DNA of 17,566 nt from a virus (IMGVR_UViG_3300029071_000015); one strand, 5' to 3'; positions 1 through 16,246 are shown, counted from the stretch's first letter. The notes: generated by a model not told the origin, from the letters alone. Numbers and translations: made by a program.

Positions 1-987
1 ATGAACGCAATAATATCGCCCGATTATTACTATGTTCTTACCGTTGCCGGTCAGTCTAATGCTATGGCGTATGGCGAAGGACTCCCGTTACCAGACAGTG
101 AAGATGCGCCTCATCCCAGAATAAAACAACTGGCGAGATTCACTCAGACGCATCCCGGTGGCCCGTTATGTCAATTTAATGACATTATTCCACTGACTCA
201 CTGCCCACACGATGTCCAGGATATGCAGGGTTATCACCATCCTCTGGCAACGAATCATCAAACACAGTACGGCACCGTTGGCCAGGCACTACATATTGCG
301 CGGAAATTACTGCCCTTCATTCCTGATAATGCAGGCGTTCTTATCGTTCCCTGTTGCCGTGGTGGATCGGCTTTTACCACGGGCAGCGAAGGGACATATT
401 CAGAACAGCACGGAGCCAGCCATGATTCATGTCGTTGGGGAGCGGATACTCCGCTGTATCAGGATTTAGTCAACAGAACACGAACGGCACTGTCAAAGAA
501 TCCGCAGAATAAATTCCTCGGCGTATGCTGGATGCAGGGCGAATTTGACTTAATGACCAGTGACTACGCGTTACATCCTCAATACTTTAATCATATGGTT
601 GAAGCCTTTCGTGAGGATTTGAAACAGTATCGTTCTCAGCTTAATAATATTGCTGCCGCTCCGTGGTTTTGCGGCGATACCACCTGGTACTGGAAAGAAA
701 ATTACCCTCATTCGTATGAAACGATTTATGGCAATTATAAAAATAATGCCTTAGCCAATATTATTTTCGTCGGCTTCCAGCAACAAGGTGAAAGAGGGCT
801 GACGAACGAGCCAGATGAAGATCCGGACGATTTTATCACGGGATATTACGGTTCAGCGTACCGAACACCAGAAAACTGGACGACGGTGCTACGCAGCAGT
901 CATTTCAGCTCAGCAGCCCGTCGGGGGATTATTTCTGACAAATTTGTTGAAGCTATTTTACGGTATTGGTGCGATATGTGGCTTTAA
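1..987 (+). CDS. nanS: N-acetyl-9-O-acetylneuraminate esterase (SGNH/sialate O-acetylesterase family), NanS/YjhS-like
   Basis: 328-aa ORF starting at window position 1; N-terminal GQSN motif typical of SGNH hydrolases; N-terminus MNAIISPDYYYVLTVAGQSNAMAYGEG matches my recollection of E. coli YjhS/NanS. Not verified by search. Confidence 0.75.
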   Translation: MNAIISPDYYYVLTVAGQSNAMAYGEGLPLPDSEDAPHPRIKQLARFTQTHPGGPLCQFNDIIPLTHCPHDVQDMQGYHHPLATNHQTQYGTVGQALHIARKLLPFIPDNAGVLIVPCCRGGSAFTTGSEGTYSEQHGASHDSCRWGADTPLYQDLVNRTRTALSKNPQNKFLGVCWMQGEFDLMTSDYALHPQYFNHMVEAFREDLKQYRSQLNNIAAAPWFCGDTTWYWKENYPHSYETIYGNYKNNALANIIFVGFQQQGERGLTNEPDEDPDDFITGYYGSAYRTPENWTTVLRSSHFSSAARRGIISDKFVEAILRYWCDMWL

Positions 988-988
988 T

Positions 989-1297
989 ATGCGCCACGAT
1001 GACACCACCGTCGCGCAGGAAGCGGCGCATATAAAATGGAAACAGCACGGCGGCCCTTGTGAAATCCCCAATGGTCTGGCGCTTTGCGCAATTCACCATA
1101 AAGCCTTTGATAAAGGATCGATTGGCCTGGATGAAAATATGCGGGTACTGGTCTCGGATGCGGTAAACGGCGGAGGGATCGTTGAGAAACTATTCTGGGA
1201 TTTTGACGGGAAAACTATTGCGTTGCCGCAGGTGCGTAAAAATTACCCTTTTGAGGGGTTTGTGGAGTGGCATCGGAAAGAGGTTTTTAGGGGGTGA
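989..1297 (+). pseudogene. C-terminal HNH-nuclease-domain fragment (truncated remnant)
   Basis: In-frame Met at 989 immediately after the nanS stop; the translation contains an H-N-H-like pattern (AAHIKWKQHGGPCEIPNGLALCAIHHKAFD). The upstream part of ORF 815..1297 overlaps nanS in another frame and is probably not coding, so no N-terminal domain is present. Confidence 0.3.
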
Positions 1298-1304
1298 GGT
1301 TTGC

Positions 1305-1350
1305 TGTAAATAGACCCGTTTTAGTTCCATGCATTTTTTGAGCTCCCGGC
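1305..1350. repeat. Left arm of a 46-bp inverted repeat (45/46 match to the reverse complement of 2521..2566)
   Basis: tgtaaatagacccgttttagttccatgcattttttgagctcccggc; the reverse complement of 2521..2566 is identical except one base (gagCtcc vs gagAtcc). Confidence 0.85.
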
Positions 1351-1386
1351 ACTGCTAAATCCGCGCTGGGGCAAGTTGGGTTTAGG

Positions 1387-1656
1387 TTGCGCCAGAAGAT
1401 GGCAACTCATCATGGTATGCAGTTCGTTCCATGGCTGAGAGTCACACTGGAGCAAGAGTTTGTACATAACAATCCGGCCAAAGTTAATGATGATAATTTC
1501 AATAACGATATTGCCGGAACAAGAGGAAGTTGCCAGGCTGGCATCAGCGCGGCTACCACGCCGCACACACATATTTACGCCAGCATAAATTATGAGAAAG
1601 GTGATGGGGTGGAATCGCCGTGGACTGGAAACATTGGCTTTAATTATAGTTTCTAA
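1387..1656 (+). CDS. Possible C-terminal fragment of an outer-membrane beta-barrel protein (questionable)
   Basis: 89-aa ORF ending in ...WTGNIGFNYSF with a terminal Phe and alternating aromatic/hydrophobic residues, reminiscent of an OMP C-terminal beta-strand signature; no convincing RBS identified. Confidence 0.2.
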   Translation: MRQKMATHHGMQFVPWLRVTLEQEFVHNNPAKVNDDNFNNDIAGTRGSCQAGISAATTPHTHIYASINYEKGDGVESPWTGNIGFNYSF

Positions 1657-1762
1657 TATGGCATTTCATGTTTATATCAATTCCTATATATCCATTGCTT
1701 TTACAATCAAATGAGAACACCATTCATTATCTTAACAATAGAGATGAAGTCAGGAGACAGCC

Positions 1763-2356
1763 ATGTCATTGCTAGAGTCATTTGGGAAAGTATTAATTAT
1801 ATTGCTTGAAGCATTTTTAGGGAAACGCAAAGGTCAGGAGGAAGCACATATTAATTTTTTAAATGAATATACGAAAGAAAACTGCAACCATCGCTTGGTA
1901 GAATATTGGTTTTGTCAGCTCACAGGATGGCGTTACGCAAAGTACCAGGATATTGTTTTTATAATGATCTCATCCGACCCATCAAAAATATTGTATATGG
2001 CTAAAGGCATTAATTACATTGCCCGTACAGTGGAATTTATTGATAGTGGAGAATGTAAACTATCCGATAGACATAAAGAAACGAAAAAGAATACATTCCT
2101 CTTTTTGTTCATATCATTCATGATCATTTTCTTCATATTAATTGCCTGGATGGTATCCTCTGTAATATCTCTGATAACACATCATCATGATGTCATATTA
2201 ATGGCTATAAATATTTCATCGATAATAGCTGGTGCGATTTTTATCATGTGCTTTGCATTCTTCATTCATGCAATAACAATGGAGTTTTTTGCCTTTGAAA
2301 AGGCAGAGCATTTTGTAAAATCTTACAATGCAGAAAGAGCATCATCAGGTCGTTAA
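1763..2356 (+). CDS. Hypothetical membrane protein (soluble N-terminal ~110 aa followed by 2-3 predicted TM helices)
   Basis: 197-aa ORF with a strong RBS (caggagacagccATG); AT-rich codon usage; hydrophobic stretches FLFLFISFMIIFFILIAWMVSSVISLI and ILMAINISSIIAGAIFIMCFAFFIHAI; lies inside the inverted-repeat-bounded segment. Confidence 0.6.
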   Translation: MSLLESFGKVLIILLEAFLGKRKGQEEAHINFLNEYTKENCNHRLVEYWFCQLTGWRYAKYQDIVFIMISSDPSKILYMAKGINYIARTVEFIDSGECKLSDRHKETKKNTFLFLFISFMIIFFILIAWMVSSVISLITHHHDVILMAINISSIIAGAIFIMCFAFFIHAITMEFFAFEKAEHFVKSYNAERASSGR

Positions 2357-2520
2357 TGTTTGCCTCTATATTAATGCTACTGCTATCGCCACCTATTAAT
2401 ATCTGCCAATCAATAGGCAAAAAGGTGATACCAGTGGCATCAAAATTTCAGCCAAACAATCTTTGTAAGACGAAGATCTCTGATTTAACACTGCACTGAT
2501 TTTGGGCCAGGGTCAATTTG

Positions 2521-2566
2521 GCCGGGATCTCAAAAAATGCATGGAACTAAAACGGGTCTATTTACA
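2521..2566. repeat. Right arm of the 46-bp inverted repeat
   Basis: gccgggatctcaaaaaatgcatggaactaaaacgggtctatttaca; its last base abuts the first codon of the sid remnant. Confidence 0.85.
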
Positions 2567-2698
2567 ACCGGACTGTCAGCGGCAACACTCCCGCACATGG
2601 ATTATGAGGTGGCAGACACACCGGCACAGCGCAAGGTGTGGCAGGACAAAATAGACCAGCAGGCAGCAGAGCTTAAGGCCAGAGGACTGCTGTCATGA
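2567..2698 (+). pseudogene. sid: 3' remnant (last ~43 codons) of a P4 sid-like capsid-size-determination gene
   Basis: Translation TGLSAATLPHMDYEVADTPAQRKVWQDKIDQQAAELKARGLLS* matches my recollection of the P4 Sid C-terminus; the stop overlaps the next start (tcATGAtg), as expected in a sid-delta-psu late operon. Confidence 0.6.
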
Positions 2699-2820: not shown

Positions 2821-3393
2821 GTGACTACAATGTCATTACAGCAGGCTTTTGAGGTCTGCCAGAATAATAAAGCGGCATAGCTTCAGCGCAAAAATGAACT
2901 AGCGGCAGCCGAACAGGAATATCTGCGGCTTCTGTCCGGGGAAGGCAGGAATGTCAACCGGCTGGACGAATTACGCAATATTATCGAAGTCAGAAAATGG
3001 CTGGTGAATCAGGCCGCCGGTCGTTATATTCGTTCGCATGAAGCCGTTCAGCACATCAGCATCTGCGACCGGCTGAATGATTTTATGCAGCAGCACGGCA
3101 CAGCACTGGCGGCCGCACTGGCACCGGAGCTGATGGGCTACAGTGAGCTGACGGCCGTTGCCCGAAACTGAGCCATACAGCGTGCCACAGATGCCCTGCG
3201 TGAAGCCCTCCTGTCCTGGCTTGCGAAGGGTGAAAAAATTAATTATTCCGCACAGGATAGCGACATTTTAACGGCTATCGGATTCAGGCCTGACGAGGCT
3301 TCGGTGGATGACAGCCGTGAAAAATTCACTCCTGCGCAGAACATAATTTTTTCCCGTAAAAGTGCAGAACTGGCATCACGTCAGTCTGTGTAA
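2821..3393 (+). pseudogene. psu: psu (polarity suppression protein) pseudogene with two in-frame stop codons
   Basis: A 573-nt frame (190 codons plus stop, GTG start with RBS aggagacgggGTG) alignable along its length to the intact Psu at 12705..13271 (roughly 60% identity by eye); TAG at 2878..2880 where the intact copy has Trp, and TGA near 3170 where a sense codon is expected. Confidence 0.75.
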
Positions 3394-3603: not shown

Positions 3604-4167
3604 TTAAGCATCCGCTTCAAATCCTCCAAGATCGATTTGCTCTTCGATTTCAGGAGTCCAAAGTAATTCTTCTGGCGTAGCGTTTGACCAAAGCAATTTA
3701 CCATTCTCGATAACATACTTAACCGGTATTTTAGGATTGTTTATGTCTTTACCATCTCTTTCATGCCATTGTCTCTCCCATTTATCATAGAAGACTTCCA
3801 AATCACCGGGCATGAGTAAATAAACTGAACGGATAGTGATATTACTATAAATTGCGAACACCCATGGAACCTGCCTATATTTCGCAATTATTGTTGGATT
3901 CATATGATGGTGAGTTGAAAAACTTTTAGTTAACTCAACATTAACTGATTTTAATTCAAACTCAGTACCAGTGACATCTACTGCATCATTACCTTCTCGC
4001 CCAGGAAGAACTTTAAGACTGAGAAGTAAAAGAACTTGCAGGAGTTTCCCTCCGTTATCTTGGAATATATCATTGATTCCGTGCTTATTAGCTAACCGTT
4101 GATATTCTTCAACCTGAGGCCAAAGCGCAATTAAATTTGACCAATCTTGATGCAACTCAAATTTCAT
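3604..4167 (-). CDS. Type II restriction endonuclease, PvuII-like (PD-(D/E)xK)
   Basis: 187-aa ORF; segments [51 protein letters not shown] and DKWER match my recollection of R.PvuII, including the catalytic D...E-x-K; ATGA overlap with the upstream C gene; divergent from the methyltransferase. Confidence 0.75.
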
Positions 4168-4400
4168 ACCTGATTATTCTCCAACAGGGAACTGGGAGAG
4201 ACGCCAAGGGCTGAAGCAATTCGGTCGATATTATCAATGGAAATATTTCTTTCACATCGCTCTACTGATCCGATGTAAGTTCTATGCAAGCCTGCTAAGT
4301 CAGCCAAGGCTTCTTGAGACAACCCTTGTCTCTCCCTTAACTTTCTGATGTTATGGGCAAAAATCACTCTTGCTCTTGAGGGGTTTATCTTTCGTTCCAT
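4164..4400 (-). CDS. Controller (C) protein of restriction-modification system, XRE-family HTH
   Basis: 78-aa ORF with a helix-turn-helix region ([41 protein letters not shown]) resembling C.PvuII-type controller proteins; sits immediately upstream of and overlaps the endonuclease gene. Confidence 0.8.
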
Positions 4401-4427
4401 TCGCGAGACAATGCAGCCTTGATGACA

Positions 4428-4452
4428 ATAGATCTACAGACTATGAGTAGCA
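4428..4452. promoter_or_regulatory. Putative C-box operator in the divergent M/C-R intergenic region
   Basis: The 55-bp intergenic region contains dyad-symmetric elements (tagatcta; actatgagt, i.e. ACT-N3-AGT) just upstream of the C gene start, where C-protein operators normally lie. Confidence 0.4.
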
Positions 4453-4455
4453 GTT

Positions 4456-5430
4456 ATGACATTTGACAATAAAAAACCTGCGTACAAAACAGATTTGGGT
4501 GCAATGTACATTGCTGACTCGCTTGAAATGCTTAAATCGATGCCAGACAACAGCTTAAATTTAGTGATGACAAGCCCACCTTTCGCATTACAGCGTAAGA
4601 AAGAATATGGTAATCACGATCAAGAACAGTACATCGATTGGTTTTTAAAATTCGGCGAGCTGATTTTTAAAAAGCTAAAAGATGATGGTAGCTTTGTCGT
4701 CGATTTTGGTGGTGCTTACATGAAAGGAGTGCCTGTTAGAAGTGTCTACAACTTCCGGGTTTTGATCAGGATGATTGATGAGGTTGGGTTCCATCTGGCT
4801 GAGGACTTCTATTGGTTTAACCCTTCAAAACTACCAAGTCCTATTGAGTGGGTTAACAAAAGAAAGCTGCGTGTTAAAGATTCTGTTAACACAATTTGGT
4901 GGTTTAGCAAAACCGAATGGCCAAAGTCAGATATAACTAAAGTTCTTGTTCCCTATAGTGATAGGATGAAAAAACTTATTGAAGACCCTAATAAATATTA
5001 TTCCCCCAAAATGCGTCCATCAGGGCATGATATAAGCAGCAGCTTTGGCAAAGATAATGGCGGTGCTATACCTCCAAATTTATTGCAAATTCCCAACTCC
5101 GAATCTAACGGTGGATATTTATCGAGTTGTAAAAAAATTGGCGTTAAGGGGCATCCAGCACGATTCCCATCTAAATTGCCGGAGTTTTTCATTACAATGT
5201 TAACAGAGCCGGGTGATCTTGTTGTAGATATTTTTGGCGGTTCAAATACAACTGGAAGTGTTGCTGAACGATTAAAACGCAAATGGCTTTCATTTGAAAT
5301 ATTACCTGAATATGTAGCCGCATCTGTATTTAGATTTACAGATAAAAATACAAGTCAAGATATACTTCAAGAGATGTATGACACTATATTAAATGGAAAT
5401 ACTCTCGATTTATGCGCCAAAGAGAAATAA
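4456..5430 (+). CDS. DNA methyltransferase, beta-class amino-MTase (likely N4-cytosine, M.PvuII-like)
   Basis: 324-aa ORF; motif IV TSPPF near the N-terminus and motif I FGGSNTTG near the C-terminus (the circularly permuted order typical of beta-class N4C/N6A MTases); divergently arranged to the C-R genes. Confidence 0.8.
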   Translation: MTFDNKKPAYKTDLGAMYIADSLEMLKSMPDNSLNLVMTSPPFALQRKKEYGNHDQEQYIDWFLKFGELIFKKLKDDGSFVVDFGGAYMKGVPVRSVYNFRVLIRMIDEVGFHLAEDFYWFNPSKLPSPIEWVNKRKLRVKDSVNTIWWFSKTEWPKSDITKVLVPYSDRMKKLIEDPNKYYSPKMRPSGHDISSSFGKDNGGAIPPNLLQIPNSESNGGYLSSCKKIGVKGHPARFPSKLPEFFITMLTEPGDLVVDIFGGSNTTGSVAERLKRKWLSFEILPEYVAASVFRFTDKNTSQDILQEMYDTILNGNTLDLCAKEK

Positions 5431-5505: not shown

Positions 5506-6764
5506 TTAAGCATGAAGTTTTGCGTAGTCAAATGGACTAATAGGTTTAATCTTGTTTGCATCAAGATAATCAGCCCACCATTGAACCATTAATCGCCTTT
5601 CATCCAAATGTTCAGGGGTATGAATATAAGCTGCCCTAACACTATTACGCTCAGAATGACTCAACTGACGTTCTATCGCGTCATCACTCCATAGCCCCGA
5701 CTCCCCCAACGCACCACGTGCCATATTCCTAAAACCATGACCACAGACTTCCGTTTTTGTGTTATATCCCATCGCACGCAATGCATTGTTTACCGTATTT
5801 TCACTCATAACCTTAGCTGCGTCATGATCTCCCGGGAAAAGAAGCTCTTTATCACCACTAATCTGCTCAAGCTGTACTAACAACATCATCGCCTGCTGGC
5901 TAAGTGGAACTATATGCTCCTCTTTCATTTTCATGCCGCGATACGAGTAACGCACACCTTTAATTTCTTCACGTTTTGCCGGAATACGCCAAATAGCGTT
6001 ATCAAAATCAAATTCTTTCCAACGAGCAAAACGCAATTCGCTTGAACGAACAAAAGTTAGTAAAGAAAGCTCAACCGCAATTTTCGTCATCATACGACCA
6101 CGATATGCAGCAAGACGCGCCAAGAACTCAGGGAAACGATGTGAGGGTAGCGCCGGATAGTGCCGCATTTTAGATGTCGATAACGCTCCAGCCATATCAC
6201 TTGCAGGATTCGAGTCTATATAATCGTTCTGTACGGCATAGCGCATAATAGTAGTGACACGTTGCTGAAGACGCTGCGCTACATCATGCTTACCACTGGC
6301 ATCAACTTTTTTATCGGAGCTAGAAGATGACTAGTTTTAAGCTGTCGGATATCAGACGAGCCAATATAAGGGAAGATATAAAGCTCTAGATAGCGAAGAA
6401 CGCGCCCCCGATGATCCTCGCTCCAACGTTTGTTGCTGGCATGCCATTCACGGGTAATAGTTTCAAAATTATAAGTACCAGCATTCTCTGCTTGGGCCTC
6501 TTTTCGTACTGCTTTTGGATCTATGCCGTGTGCCAGCAACTTTTTCGCTTCATCCCTTCTCGTTCTAGCTTCAGCAAGCGTCACGGTCGGCCAAACACCA
6601 AAAGCAAGACGATCCTCTTTTTTGTCGGAGGGGCGTCTGTATTTCATACGCCAATATTTAGAGCCTTTGATAGAAACCTCAAGATACAAACCGCCACCAT
6701 CAGCCATTTTGTAGGTTTTGTCTTTTAGCTTTGCGGTCTCGACTTGTCTGGCGTTGAGCTTCAT
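5506..6764 (-). pseudogene. int: P4-family tyrosine integrase, frameshifted (split into 6279..6764 and 5506..6246 ORFs)
   Basis: The two ORFs together align along the intact integrase at 16301..17566 (roughly 85-90% identity); the nucleotide alignment shows a 1-bp deletion near 6270..6290 (ttttttatcgg versus ttttttaatcgg in the intact copy) that breaks the frame. Confidence 0.8.
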
Positions 6765-13668: not shown

Positions 13669-14748
13669 ATGAATGTAGGGCATCTCAATTTTTTCAAGGT
13701 TAATAAGTGCGGTTTATACAAGGTAAATGATGACAATACCTATGGTTTAGAACTAAGCGAAACATTTGACCTCATACAGGATTGGGTAGGAACTAAACCT
13801 CTTGCACTCACCATACCATGGGACCCAAAAGAAAAACCCAATAGATCAAAGTGTTATTGTAAAGACATCTACAAAGATGAAAATACTGGTGATTTTTTAA
13901 TCATGTTATGGAAATCTGATACTGATAGTACTGGTTCTTTATTAGGAGCGAGTGAAGACGGTGAAATCGGAAGTTCATCAGTGGTTAAATATACTAATAG
14001 CTACAGAGGGAAAAAAGTCATCTGGGGTCGCCCATGCTTTTATTGGGTTATACCTGAACTTGAAACTATAGTTTCTATTAAATTCGATCATTCTGTTTGT
14101 GACTCTGAACTATTTCAAGATTATGTACACTCATCTATTACTAATAGAGTTAAACATAGCAAAAGAGTTAAAAATAAAACCGAGAAAGGTTATATAAGAT
14201 TATCTAATACTGATGACGAAGATTTATATAAATACATGTACAGATTTGATATGAAGCTCCGAAGCTTAGAAACCACTCATGCTGAGTTAGGTAAATTGAT
14301 ATCAAAAATAACACATATTGTTCGCAGAGAAACCATTATTATAAATCCAAATGACGCACGAGCTGATTGGTTAAAGACTTTTAGCACTCTCGTTCCATTT
14401 GTGTCCGGAAAGAAAAACACCAGAACAAGACAGATTGAAATAAAAGCAGAAGCGAAGCCATCCTTGAAAGAAGTTCAAGAAATAATTGAAAAACATTCTG
14501 CTGAGGATAGAGAAAAACGTCTTTGGGATAATGTGGGATTTGCGACGGACAAGGGCATAACATGGGTGGATAAATATAGAATGCGTGATATTCTCAATGT
14601 CCCTTCCGAAGACTATTCGACATATACCGCTGCATATATCTACGAACACATATCACACAAAAGAAAAGAATTCATTTCCCCTATATTAAAAGAGCTAAAA
14701 GCATTAAAATCTCAATCAAGAATAAAGAAAGCATCTGGAGAGGATTGA
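13669..14748 (+). CDS. Hypothetical protein (cargo gene A, 359 aa, soluble, Lys-rich)
   Basis: Long ORF with RBS aaggaaagagcATG; AT-rich codon usage contrasting with the satellite backbone; no catalytic motif I can recognise; stop directly abuts the next start (TGAATG). Confidence 0.7.
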   Translation: MNVGHLNFFKVNKCGLYKVNDDNTYGLELSETFDLIQDWVGTKPLALTIPWDPKEKPNRSKCYCKDIYKDENTGDFLIMLWKSDTDSTGSLLGASEDGEIGSSSVVKYTNSYRGKKVIWGRPCFYWVIPELETIVSIKFDHSVCDSELFQDYVHSSITNRVKHSKRVKNKTEKGYIRLSNTDDEDLYKYMYRFDMKLRSLETTHAELGKLISKITHIVRRETIIINPNDARADWLKTFSTLVPFVSGKKNTRTRQIEIKAEAKPSLKEVQEIIEKHSAEDREKRLWDNVGFATDKGITWVDKYRMRDILNVPSEDYSTYTAAYIYEHISHKRKEFISPILKELKALKSQSRIKKASGED

Positions 14749-15285
14749 ATGTTAAAAGCTATAGTAGGCCTCGTCAAATACACATGGATATACATAGCAA
14801 TATTCATTATATCGCTATTGGTCATTTTACCATCCGATATTTACTATGTGTATAACGATTTTGCTAACTATTGCACTCTTCTCGTATCAGTTTCTGGAAT
14901 GGTTTTTACTATTATGGGGATTTGGTTAGCGTTTCTTTATCCAAATGCTTTGCAGCGTATTGTTAACCCCAAAACTATAGAAACTGTTGATTTCACCGAA
15001 CAACTGGAAGATACAAAAAGGTTAGAAGCAATAGTTGGAAGTGTTCTAAAATCATCTTTCGTTATGATTACTTTACTTGTTGTATATTTAGTTAAACTAG
15101 TATTTTTCAAGAGTCATCTTTATTTAGAGAGTCAAGAAGTAATAAAAGACATATCTTTAGCATTAATTATTGCCATTTCATACATGCAGATTGAGGCAGT
15201 GATTAGTGTAATACTAGCTAATGTTATGTTTATCAATGATTTACATAATAAGCGAGAGCAAAGAGACATCGACGATCAAGTATGA
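14749..15285 (+). CDS. Hypothetical integral membrane protein (cargo gene B, 178 aa, ~4 TM helices)
   Basis: Four hydrophobic segments (WIYIAIFIISLLVIL, LLVSVSGMVFTIMGIWLAFLY, FVMITLLVVYLVKLVFF, LALIIAISYMQIEAVISVILANVMFI); translationally coupled to gene A. Confidence 0.7.
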   Translation: MLKAIVGLVKYTWIYIAIFIISLLVILPSDIYYVYNDFANYCTLLVSVSGMVFTIMGIWLAFLYPNALQRIVNPKTIETVDFTEQLEDTKRLEAIVGSVLKSSFVMITLLVVYLVKLVFFKSHLYLESQEVIKDISLALIIAISYMQIEAVISVILANVMFINDLHNKREQRDIDDQV

Positions 15286-15292
15286 GGAAAAA

Positions 15293-16246
15293 ATGAAAAA
15301 AAACATACGAGTTATACCTAAAAACATTCATAACAAGTTAAAAAGGCTTGGCAATGCAGTTGTTGCTGGCACTTCCATCGCATTTACAGAAGACCAATTA
15401 AAAAATGGTATACTAGAGCACCTTGGAATATACTTTGATAATGGTGTTAATGCTTATGAGACGTCGGTTATACCCGATCCATTGCAAGGCAAATATTCAT
15501 TCAAAAATGTTTTCGGTGAAGAAATCGTAAGAAAAGACCTTCCAAAAGAAACTCATTACACTGAAATTGAGTCACCTAACTGGGGTGATAGTTCTAACGG
15601 TACGCATACTGTTAGATTACCTCACGAGAAATACCCCAGAGATATTATCCCACCAAGACTCATAGCAATTGAAATTAATCACAAACAGTCTTCGGACAGT
15701 CATTTCATATTTAATTTCAGAGTAACTAGAATTTTAGAAAAAAAATCAACCAAGTTTCATGATGAATTATTATTCGACTTAAATCTTCTTCAAGAAAATA
15801 TTGGGAAGTGTGGGATTGAGAATGCTGATAAACCTATATCGACTTATGCTGACACACTCATAGTATCATGGGACATATTTCCACCAGGTAGTAAAGAGGA
15901 AGTTTTAGCAAGAATCTTTAGAGGGAAAAATATCACTACAGATAAGAAAAGTGTTGCTGAAAACAGATATGACTTCTTTATGAGCCTTGATCCTAAAAAA
16001 ATTGTCACAGGTAATAGTACGTTCAGTAATTATATTGGAGCTATGCTAGAGGACGACCTGGTTGTTTTTGAAAATATAGAATATGGTAATGCAATATATA
16101 TCCTCTATGATAACTGGGATGAAATCAGCAAGCTATCTCGAATCGATTTGTTATCAGGAAGAGCAGGCAATAATTTCGATAGAATAATTCATAGTGGTAA
16201 TTGGAAAGACGAGGTGCGAAAAAAAGTTACTAATGGAAGATTATGA
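15293..16246 (+). CDS. Hypothetical protein (cargo gene C, 317 aa, soluble)
   Basis: Start placed at MKKNIRV with RBS tatgaggaaaaaATG, 7 nt after the gene B stop; the longer listed ORF (from 15221) would overlap gene B; followed by a strong terminator. Confidence 0.65.
   Translation: MKKNIRVIPKNIHNKLKRLGNAVVAGTSIAFTEDQLKNGILEHLGIYFDNGVNAYETSVIPDPLQGKYSFKNVFGEEIVRKDLPKETHYTEIESPNWGDSSNGTHTVRLPHEKYPRDIIPPRLIAIEINHKQSSDSHFIFNFRVTRILEKKSTKFHDELLFDLNLLQENIGKCGIENADKPISTYADTLIVSWDIFPPGSKEEVLARIFRGKNITTDKKSVAENRYDFFMSLDPKKIVTGNSTFSNYIGAMLEDDLVVFENIEYGNAIYILYDNWDEISKLSRIDLLSGRAGNNFDRIIHSGNWKDEVRKKVTNGRL

What the first reader, a model, noticed from the sequence alone, without database searches (positions are those of the whole stretch)
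1305..2566. 46-bp near-perfect inverted repeats bracket a 1.26-kb AT-rich segment whose right arm marks the exact truncation point of sid
Seen in sequence: 1305..1350 and the reverse complement of 2521..2566 match at 45 of 46 positions. The right arm ends at 2566 and the sid remnant begins at 2567, so the sid 5' portion and everything beyond it in the decayed satellite were replaced at this boundary. The left arm sits 8 bp after the HNH fragment stop. The flanks show no matching target-site duplication. The bounded segment carries a membrane-protein gene with a strong RBS and a possible OMP-like fragment. Inference: the arms could be terminal inverted repeats of a non-autonomous mobile element, sites of a recombinase-mediated inversion or deletion, or a recombination scar. 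I do not recognise the repeat as belonging to any IS or transposon family.
Basis: partly seen in the sequence, partly recalled or inferred. Interest (0 to 1): 0.6.

Follow-up and report, generated by a model that had tools for sequence, protein, structure and literature searches.

The report
Two insertion-sequence end stubs bracketing island debris
The 46-bp inverted repeat is real, but its arms are two leftover stubs of the same end of a common IS3-family insertion sequence, enclosing a 1.1-kb scrap of a conjugative-island gene cluster, so it is an ordinary rearrangement scar and not a new mobile element.

Summary
Positions 1305-1350 and the reverse complement of 2521-2566 match at 45 of 46. 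The right arm abuts the sid remnant exactly, and there is no target-site duplication.

Both arms are copies of one end, the transposase-distal end (IRR), of a ~1.2-kb IS3-family insertion sequence ("IS#1"). This IS is found in about 1,800 of 5,426 complete E. coli genomes. Its true left and right ends agree at only 19 of 46 ungapped positions, so the near-perfect repeat exists only because the same end is present twice.

The repeat's inner limits are accidents:
- **Left arm:** it stops at IS position 46, at an 8-bp microhomology joint (ATCCCGGC) with the 3' end of an autotransporter gene.
- **Right arm:** it runs 51 bp and is then interrupted by the last 49 bp of a second IS3-family element ("IS#2").

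The enclosed 1344-2462 is 88-93% identical to integrative conjugative elements of E. coli, Salmonella and Citrobacter. It holds an autotransporter tail and a 197-aa orphan membrane protein.

All 16 contigs carrying this exact protein have the same gene neighbourhood. The five long contigs whose DNA I compared carry the identical element in the same orientation.

Best reading: a patchwork scar of nested and truncated ISs plus deletions. It is ordinary and of low interest.

The parts
988..1297 (+). C-terminal HNH fragment of a phosphorothioated-DNA-binding restriction endonuclease gene (left flank; not part of the repeat-bounded unit)
   Evidence: 98% identical to annotated intact genes in many E. 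coli genomes; the match covers window 985-1301. Pfam HNH_2, E 4.7e-8. Empty-site comparison with E24377A.
1305..1350 (+). Left arm: positions 1-46 of the IRR (transposase-distal) end of the IS3-family element IS#1, with the TG terminus facing outward
   Evidence: 44-45 of 46 identical to the IS end in L002, L003 and L004, and only 18 of 46 to the IRL end. The annotated IS3-family transposase ends 16 nt inside this terminus in full copies.
1343..1350 (.). Left joint: 8-bp microhomology (ATCCCGGC in both parents, CTCCCGGC here) between IS#1 positions 39-46 and the autotransporter gene
   Evidence: Alignment A1 of the window, two ICEs and two IS copies.
1344..1656 (+). 3' terminal 313 bp of an autotransporter beta-barrel gene, a gene fragment ending at its native stop codon
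   Evidence: 88-93% DNA identity to ICE loci L001, L011, L018 and L019, where it is the end of a 770-aa autotransporter gene. Pfam Autotransporter profile positions 187-254 of 255.
1763..2356 (+). Intact gene for a 197-aa orphan protein with two long hydrophobic segments and its own Shine-Dalgarno sequence; function unknown
   Evidence: ORF list. No Pfam or PADLOC hit. Only 8 homologue clusters in the 5.8-billion-protein set. Hydropathy and AGGAG.
1344..2462 (+). The whole enclosed segment derived from an integrative conjugative element (ICE)
   Evidence: Collinear BLAST matches with the same end points in E. coli MS 16-3 (91.9%), Salmonella (92.7%) and Citrobacter youngae (87.9%). These ICEs continue past both end points, whereas the window does not.
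2463..2466 (.). Right joint: about 4 nt (TTGT) assignable to neither parent, between the ICE segment and the IS#2 stub
   Evidence: Alignments A2 and A3.
2467..2515 (+). Last 49 bp (IRR end, terminating ...GGGTCA) of a second IS3-family element, IS#2 (1211 bp when complete)
   Evidence: 98% identical to L012 2501-2549, the end of a complete IS with a programmed-frameshift transposase and a 4-bp TAAC duplication.
2516..2566 (-). Right arm: positions 1-51 of the same IS#1 IRR end, inverted, with its terminus abutting sid
   Evidence: 51 of 51 identical to L002 and 50 of 51 to L004. The same IS#2-end / IS#1-position-51 junction is present in E. coli TUM1881 and on pECC-1470_100.
2567..2698 (+). 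3' remnant of the P4-like sid gene (right flank)
   Evidence: 98.9% identical to the 3' end of sid in intact P4-like satellites. Homology begins at 2567.

Best explanation
The inverted repeat consists of two truncated copies of one and the same terminus of an IS3-family insertion sequence (IS#1, about 1206 bp). That terminus is the IRR end, next to the transposase stop codon.

Two IS#1 copies once lay in opposite orientation. One was just downstream of the endonuclease gene. The other was inside the sid gene of an old P4-like satellite. The sid-side copy had already been split 51 bp from its tip by insertion of a second IS3-family element (IS#2).

Later RecA-independent deletions or joinings left the present structure. 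One used an 8-bp microhomology. The other has about 4 nt of filler. Together they removed both IS bodies, most of IS#2, the 5' part of sid with everything beyond it, and most of an integrative conjugative element. Only 1.1 kb of that element is left between the stubs.

Shown here: the identity of every piece and the exact joints. Inferred: the order of events, and that the ICE was once resident at this locus. The result is a non-functional scar. The 46-bp length of the repeat is simply the shorter of the two stubs (46 versus 51). The 197-aa gene is a surviving passenger and may still be expressed.
For: - **The 46-mer is an IS end.** It hits 2,129 places in 1,777 of 5,426 E. coli genomes (median one per genome). 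The listed best matches lie mostly under annotated IS3-family transposase genes or pseudogenes.
- **Both arms are the same end.** Full or partial copies place it at the transposase C-terminal end. Both arms match this end at 44-45 of 46, but match the opposite IRL end at only 18 of 46. IRR versus IRL of the IS itself is 19 of 46 ungapped.
- **The left joint is illegitimate.** It lies inside an ATCCCGGC microhomology shared by IS#1 and the autotransporter gene.
- **The right arm is nested.** It continues to IS position 51 and is followed by the terminal 49 bp of a different complete IS (L012, 4-bp TSD TAAC). The same nested junction occurs in other E. coli chromosomes and plasmids, so it predates this structure.
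- **The enclosed DNA comes from an ICE.** It is collinear with ICE DNA in four genomes, which all continue beyond both break points.
- **No duplication.** The flanks are TTGC and ACCG.
- **No sign of movement or inversion.** All 16 contigs that encode the exact 197-aa protein have the same gene neighbourhood. The five long ones compared by DNA carry the identical 1262-bp unit in the same orientation. No complete E. coli genome has either outer junction.
- **Literature.** Partial IS copies are described as scars of ancestral recombination events (PMC3129680).
Against: - Both stubs keep the outward-facing TG...CA termini and 46-51 bp, which covers the whole region over which IS#1's own two ends resemble each other. 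A trans-acting transposase would therefore have its likely substrate. Two independent truncations at nearly the same distance from the tips is a mild coincidence.
- No closely related genome lacking the structure, or carrying intact IS copies at these sites, was found. The order of events is therefore inferred.
- Residence of an ICE at this locus was not demonstrated.
- The 4 nt TTGC between the endonuclease flank and the left tip is unexplained.
Confidence: 0.8

Rival explanations
1. The unit 1305-2566 is a non-autonomous, trans-mobilisable cassette, like a mobile insertion cassette (MIC) or a large MITE. It carries two IRR ends and arrived in sid, or could still move, using the transposase of a full IS#1 elsewhere in the genome. 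It would carry the 197-aa membrane-protein gene as a passenger.
For: The termini face outward as TG...CA. Each arm retains 46-51 bp of the IS end, covering the whole native terminal-repeat region. No transposase lies inside. An intact passenger gene with its own ribosome-binding site is retained. MICs and solo IRs can be activated by a cognate transposase (PMC3129680).
Against: - There is no target-site duplication.
- Only one locus and one orientation are seen in all 16 contigs.
- The cargo occurs without arms in every other genome found.
- Both arms are IRR, and they are joined to the cargo by a microhomology joint and by a stub of another IS. This looks like decay and not like a streamlined element.
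- No second copy or IS#1 body is present in the window.
Confidence: 0.08
2. The structure is the decayed remnant of a composite transposon: two full IS#1 copies in inverted orientation, IRR ends outward, flanking ICE-derived DNA. It transposed as a unit into sid. Internal deletions then removed the IS bodies, and an adjacent deletion starting at the left tip removed the sid 5' part together with the duplication.
For: The arm orientation is exactly that of the outer ends of an inverted-copy composite. Both outer boundaries lie precisely at IS tips, as expected for transposition and IS-promoted adjacent deletion.
Against: No such composite, and no full IS#1 next to this ICE module, was found in any searched genome. 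This history needs more events than independent insertions plus deletions. The nested IS#2/IS#1 junction pre-exists in unrelated contexts. This rival differs from the best explanation only in history, not in the present state.
Confidence: 0.1
3. The arms are crossover sites for programmed or homologous inversion of the 1.17-kb segment, that is, an invertible switch.
For: A 46-bp near-perfect inverted repeat could in principle support rare homologous inversion.
Against: The arms are IS termini, not recombinase sites. No invertase gene is in or next to the unit. All five independent long contigs show one orientation. Inversion would have no obvious regulatory consequence for the enclosed gene.
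Confidence: 0.02

Closest known systems
Partial IS copies, solo IRs and intercalated ISs of the IS3 family (ISfinder / ISsaga categories)
   Same: The arms are the terminal 46 and 51 bp of an IS3-family element with TG...CA tips. One stub is interrupted by another IS3-family element. The stubs are joined to unrelated DNA and mark the break points of larger rearrangements.
   Different: Two stubs of the same end happen to lie in inverted orientation 1.17 kb apart. That mimics the terminal inverted repeats of a single element.
Mobile insertion cassettes (MICs), MITEs and ISs with passenger genes
   Same: IS-derived inverted termini enclose non-transposase DNA that includes an intact passenger gene. 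There is no transposase inside.
   Different: Both termini are IRR rather than IRL plus IRR. There is no target-site duplication and only a single locus. The cargo is joined to the ends by an illegitimate microhomology joint and by a stub of a second IS.
Composite transposons bounded by inverted IS copies
   Same: Same-type IS ends face outward on both sides of captured DNA.
   Different: Only 46-51 bp of each IS remains. No transposase, no duplication and no second location.
IS407-like members of the IS3 family (about 1.2 kb, OrfA/OrfB with programmed frameshift, 4-bp duplications). The subgroup assignment comes from my own knowledge of OrfA sequences and was not tested.
   Same: IS#1 is about 1206 bp and IS#2 is 1211 bp. 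Both have two overlapping reading frames annotated as frameshifted or programmed-frameshift IS3-family transposase. IS#2 has a 4-bp duplication (TAAC) in L012.
   Different: Neither element is named in the annotations I could reach, and ISfinder was not available. The exact IS names are therefore not established.

Membership tests
IS3-family insertion sequence terminus (the arms) | The sequence coincides with the physical end of an element that encodes an IS3-family (OrfA/OrfB, DDE integrase-core) transposase | tested here: met
   The match starts at the first base of the element in L002, L003 and L004. The annotated IS3-family transposase or integrase-core CDS ends 16 nt inside it. Translation shows OrfA and OrfB frames.
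IS3-family insertion sequence terminus (the arms) | Termini 5'-TG...CA-3' with imperfect terminal inverted repeats | tested here: met
   IS#1 ends are TGTAAATAG... and TGTAAGTAT.... IRL and IRR agree at about 34 of 51 with gaps and 19 of 46 ungapped.
IS3-family insertion sequence terminus (the arms) | A 3-4-bp target-site duplication flanking an insertion | tested here: not met
   The window flanks are TTGC and ACCG. This is expected if the arms come from two different IS copies. IS#2 in L012 does show TAAC on both sides.
MITE / MIC (non-autonomous IS derivative) | IS-derived terminal inverted repeats and no transposase gene | tested here: met
MITE / MIC (non-autonomous IS derivative) | Flanking target-site duplication | tested here: not met
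MITE / MIC (non-autonomous IS derivative) | Several copies, or presence at different loci in different genomes | tested here: not met
   All 16 contigs have the same context. The element is identical in five independent contigs. Neither junction occurs in any of 5,426 complete E. coli genomes. Only one relative of the cargo was found in 185,579 species genomes, and it lacks arms.
MITE / MIC (non-autonomous IS derivative) | Mobilisation by a cognate transposase | not testable with these tools
   This needs a transposition assay or population long-read data.
Composite transposon | Two complete IS copies flanking the cargo | tested here: not met
   Only 46-bp and 51-bp stubs are present. There is no other IS#1 sequence in the window.
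Invertible DNA switch | Both orientations observed, and/or an adjacent invertase gene | tested here: not met
   One orientation in five independent contigs. No recombinase in or beside the unit.

The most novel reading that the evidence does not exclude
The IRR/IRR-bounded 1.26-kb unit is a functional, trans-mobilisable cassette that IS#1 transposase can move. It would ferry a rare orphan membrane-protein gene. That gene also turns up in a Morganella Rhs toxin/immunity array and might be an immunity-type gene. This would be an example of how IS3-family decay products recruit and spread single accessory genes.
Probability: 0.06. Interest if true: 0.4.

Novelty: already known. Interest (0 to 1): 0.12.

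Why it matters
This finding mainly serves as a correction. A striking, near-perfect 46-bp inverted repeat that looks like the ends of an unknown transposon is in fact two stubs of a common IS3-family end.

It also dates and explains the truncation of the older P4-like satellite: an IS insertion in sid followed by deletion. It shows that the nanS-proximal edge of this island is a layered graveyard of endonuclease island, ICE scrap, nested ISs and tandem satellites.

It adds no new mechanism. Its practical value is for annotation of partial ISs, and as a caution that same-end IS stubs can imitate terminal inverted repeats.

Tried and rejected
- **Same structure in E. coli.** I looked in 5,426 complete E. 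coli genomes with the whole region, each outer junction, and the nanS/HNH flank. No genome has either outer junction or the nanS|HNH fusion. No empty-site or filled-site sister strain could be compared.
- **Species genomes.** The GTDB species-genome scan with the 197-aa protein found only Citrobacter youngae, without arms.
- **Exact-protein look-up.** It gave 16 contigs, all with the same context.
- **Homologue contexts.** Homologues in Salmonella, E. coli, Citrobacter and Morganella lack the arms.
- **Function of the 197-aa protein.** Pfam and PADLOC gave nothing. One PADLOC hit at E 0.06 was disregarded.
- **Promoters and terminators.** The scan gave no more promoter-like sites than in shuffled sequence (4 against a mean of 4.8) and 3 weak terminator-like sites against 1.2 expected, none bearing on the repeat.
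- **RNA families.** Rfam gave nothing inside the unit.
- **Naming the ISs.** A literature search for the terminal sequences found only primers in Salmonella SPI-6 papers. The ISs remain unnamed.
- **Right arm as continuous IS.** I considered that the right arm plus 2467-2515 might be one continuous IS end. I rejected this because 2467-2515 is the terminus of a separate complete IS with its own duplication.
- **Scan not run.** I did not run the metagenome-wide pattern scan. The exact-protein look-up already covered those sources and showed a single context.

Full report
**1. Observation**

The repeat is exactly as described. Positions 1305-1350 and 2521-2566 form a 46-nt inverted repeat with one mismatch and 1170 nt between the arms. 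Chance would give about 4e-18 such pairs in a window this size.

The right arm ends at 2566. Homology to an intact P4-like sid gene (E. coli ATCC 8739, L015) starts at 2567. On the left, homology to the intact phosphorothioated-DNA-binding restriction endonuclease gene and its 3' flank (E24377A, L014) ends about 4 nt before the arm. The gene's stop codon is at 1295-1297.

The 4-bp flanks, TTGC and ACCG, are not a duplication. The interior is AT-rich, with GC 31-39% from about 1650 to 2550. It contains an autotransporter C-terminal fragment and a 197-aa ORF with AGGAG 8 nt upstream and two long hydrophobic segments.

**2. What the arms are**

The 46-mer hits 2,129 places in 1,777 of 5,426 complete E. 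coli genomes, with a median of one per genome. The listed best matches lie mostly under annotated IS3-family transposase genes or pseudogenes, on chromosomes and plasmids.

In full or partial copies (L002, L003, L004) the match begins at the very first base of the element, and the transposase reading frame ends 16 nt inside it. This is therefore the IRR, the transposase-distal terminus, of an IS of about 1206 bp that I call IS#1. Its two overlapping frames, OrfA and OrfB, are visible in translation.

Both window arms match this same end. The left arm matches at 44-45 of 46. The right arm matches at 50-51 of 51, because its match runs on to 2516. Both match the opposite IRL end at only 18 of 46. 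IRR and IRL of the IS agree with each other at only 19 of 46 ungapped positions, or about 34 of 51 with gaps.

A near-perfect 46-bp repeat therefore cannot be the natural terminal repeat of this IS. It exists because the same end is present twice, so the arms derive from two IS copies or from a duplication of one end.

**3. What lies between the arms**

Window 1344-2462/3 is collinear with integrative conjugative elements at these identities:
- 91.9% in E. coli MS 16-3 (L001)
- 92.7% in Salmonella enterica (L018/L019)
- 87.9% in Citrobacter youngae (L011)

In each of these the segment is the last 313 bp of a 770-aa autotransporter gene, the following 197-aa gene, and about 100 bp downstream. 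In each genome the ICE sequence continues past both end points, so the break points are specific to the window.

The left joint lies inside an 8-bp microhomology. ATCCCGGC is present both at IS#1 positions 39-46 and in the autotransporter gene. The window reads CTCCCGGC, and this difference is the arm's only mismatch.

On the right, the ICE homology stops at 2462/3 and about 4 nt (TTGT) belong to neither parent. Then 2467-2515 is 98% identical to the last 49 bp of a different, complete IS3-family element, IS#2. IS#2 is 1211 bp (L012 1339-2549), has a programmed-frameshift transposase and a 4-bp duplication TAAC, and is common on Klebsiella and Salmonella plasmids at about 91%. Its ...GGGTCA tip abuts IS#1 position 51.

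The same IS#2-tip / IS#1-position-51 junction is found in diverged form in E. coli TUM1881 (89%) and on plasmid pECC-1470_100 (about 84%). The nesting is therefore older than, and independent of, the structure in the window.

**4. Anatomy in one line**

HNH fragment | IS#1 IRR 1-46 -> | (8-bp microhomology) ICE scrap 1344-2462 | about 4 nt | IS#2 last 49 bp | <- IS#1 IRR 51-1 | sid 3' remnant.

**5. Is it mobile or invertible?**

- All 16 contigs in the large assembly collection that encode exactly this 197-aa protein show the same neighbourhood: fimB-nanC-nanM-nanS-HNH fragment-unit-psu-PvuII-type R-M-integrase-primase.
- Five long contigs from independent samples carry the identical 1262-bp unit at the same position and in the same orientation.
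- No complete E. coli genome contains either outer junction or the unit as a whole.
- The window holds no other IS#1 or IS#2 sequence.
- No recombinase gene lies in or next to the unit.

I found no evidence of transposition, copy-number increase or inversion.

**6. Most likely history (inferred)**

The window is a tandem array of two P4-like satellites. The older one is decayed and retains sid', delta, psu fragments, a PvuII-like R-M system and a split integrase. The other is intact and has primase, C4/isrK RNAs, sid, psu, three unknown ORFs and an integrase. Distal to the array lie older island debris and nanS.

The simplest account is as follows. An IS#1 copy inserted in sid and was itself hit by IS#2. 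A second IS#1 copy sat downstream of the endonuclease gene in the opposite orientation. ICE DNA lay between them. Two illegitimate deletion or joining events then removed the IS bodies, most of IS#2, the 5' part of sid with the rest of the old satellite, and nearly all of the ICE. One of these events was microhomology-mediated.

A variant history, a decayed inverted-IS composite transposon followed by an adjacent deletion, cannot be excluded. It leads to the same present state.

Partial IS copies of this kind are recognised as scars of ancestral recombination. MICs, MITEs and solo IRs may be trans-activated by a cognate transposase (PMC3129680). Because the stubs face outward and span the whole native terminal-repeat region, trans-mobilisation is conceivable. 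I give it under 10%.

**7. Comparison with known kinds, and novelty**

The arms pass the tests for an IS3-family terminus: position at the end of a transposase-encoding element, TG...CA tips, and imperfect native IRs. The unit fails the tests for a MITE or MIC (no duplication, a single locus, two IRR ends). It also fails for a composite transposon (no complete IS) and for an invertible switch (one orientation, no invertase).

This is an already known kind of feature, namely partial and nested IS copies marking rearrangement break points. Its recombination-scar option is the one supported.

**8. Limits**

- ISfinder was unavailable, so IS#1 and IS#2 are unnamed. Assigning them to the IS407-like subgroup rests on my own knowledge of OrfA sequences and the 4-bp duplication, and was not tested.
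- No sister genome was found to order the events.
- The function of the 197-aa protein is unknown. It has no Pfam or PADLOC match and only 8 homologue clusters.

Noticed in passing
window 2467-2566; L013 3001-3100; L017 about 3001-3100: The junction 'IS#2 right tip | IS#1 position 51' recurs in diverged form (89% and about 84%) in unrelated E. coli chromosomal and plasmid contexts. Either it is an old nested insertion that has been widely inherited and spread, or IS#2-like elements repeatedly target this spot just inside the IS#1 end.
   Followed up: partly
window 1763-2356; L020 1956-2537 (Morganella morganii); L001, L011, L018, L019: The 197-aa membrane ORFan has only 8 homologue clusters among 5.8 billion proteins and occurs in two unrelated settings. 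In ICEs of Salmonella, E. coli and Citrobacter it sits directly after an autotransporter gene. In Morganella it sits after an Rhs-AHH toxin tip and a 201-aa ORF, and there the DNA homology covers only window 1676-2338. That setting hints at an orphan immunity-type gene cassette.
   Followed up: partly
window 2405-2443; L001 3796-3832 and 3855-3893; L011 1168-1205; L018 2440-2475: A motif of about 38 nt downstream of the 197-aa gene, containing a small hairpin, is directly repeated upstream of the autotransporter gene in the ICEs. It therefore brackets the two-gene module there. Its meaning is unknown.
   Followed up: no
window 13669-16246: Three consecutive ORFs (359, 178 and 341 aa) lie between psu and the integrase of the intact P4-like satellite and have no Pfam match. 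This is the position where P4-like satellites usually carry variable accessory or defence cargo (from my own knowledge; not tested).
   Followed up: no
window 3604-5430 and 5506-6764: The decayed satellite carries a PvuII-type restriction endonuclease, a small HTH controller-like ORF and an N4/N6 methyltransferase. Its integrase is split into two ORFs and so is probably a pseudogene.
   Followed up: partly
window about 981-988: A complete nanS gene is fused directly to the C-terminal third of the endonuclease gene. In E. coli genomes these two are about 770 bp further apart, and no complete E. coli genome shares the fusion. nanS here is only about 90% identical to E. coli alleles, while the island parts are 98-99% identical. 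This suggests a divergent Escherichia lineage or allele.
   Followed up: partly
window 2537-2698: An ORF starts with an ATG inside the right IS#1 stub and reads in frame across the IS tip into the last 44 codons of sid. The stub's outward tip reads TTTACA, which is -35-like. No convincing hybrid promoter was found.
   Followed up: partly
L010 (Logan contig, 1245 bp = window 1313-2557): In four read sets the assembler produced a contig that begins and ends inside the two arms. This is the expected assembly break at an inverted repeat or multicopy IS end, not evidence of an excised circle.
   Followed up: no
L003 5404-6325 (E. coli RM14723; H64 and H67 have similar annotation): In several E. coli strains an IS#1 remnant abuts the same endonuclease gene in the same orientation but at a different position, inside the gene at a point equivalent to window position about 1077. 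This is an independent IS#1 hit in the same small region.
   Followed up: partly
literature: A 14-mer of the IS#1 tip (CGGGTCTATTTACA) occurs in primer sequences of two papers on deleting Salmonella SPI-6. This suggests that an IS#1-like end sits at that island's border.
   Followed up: no
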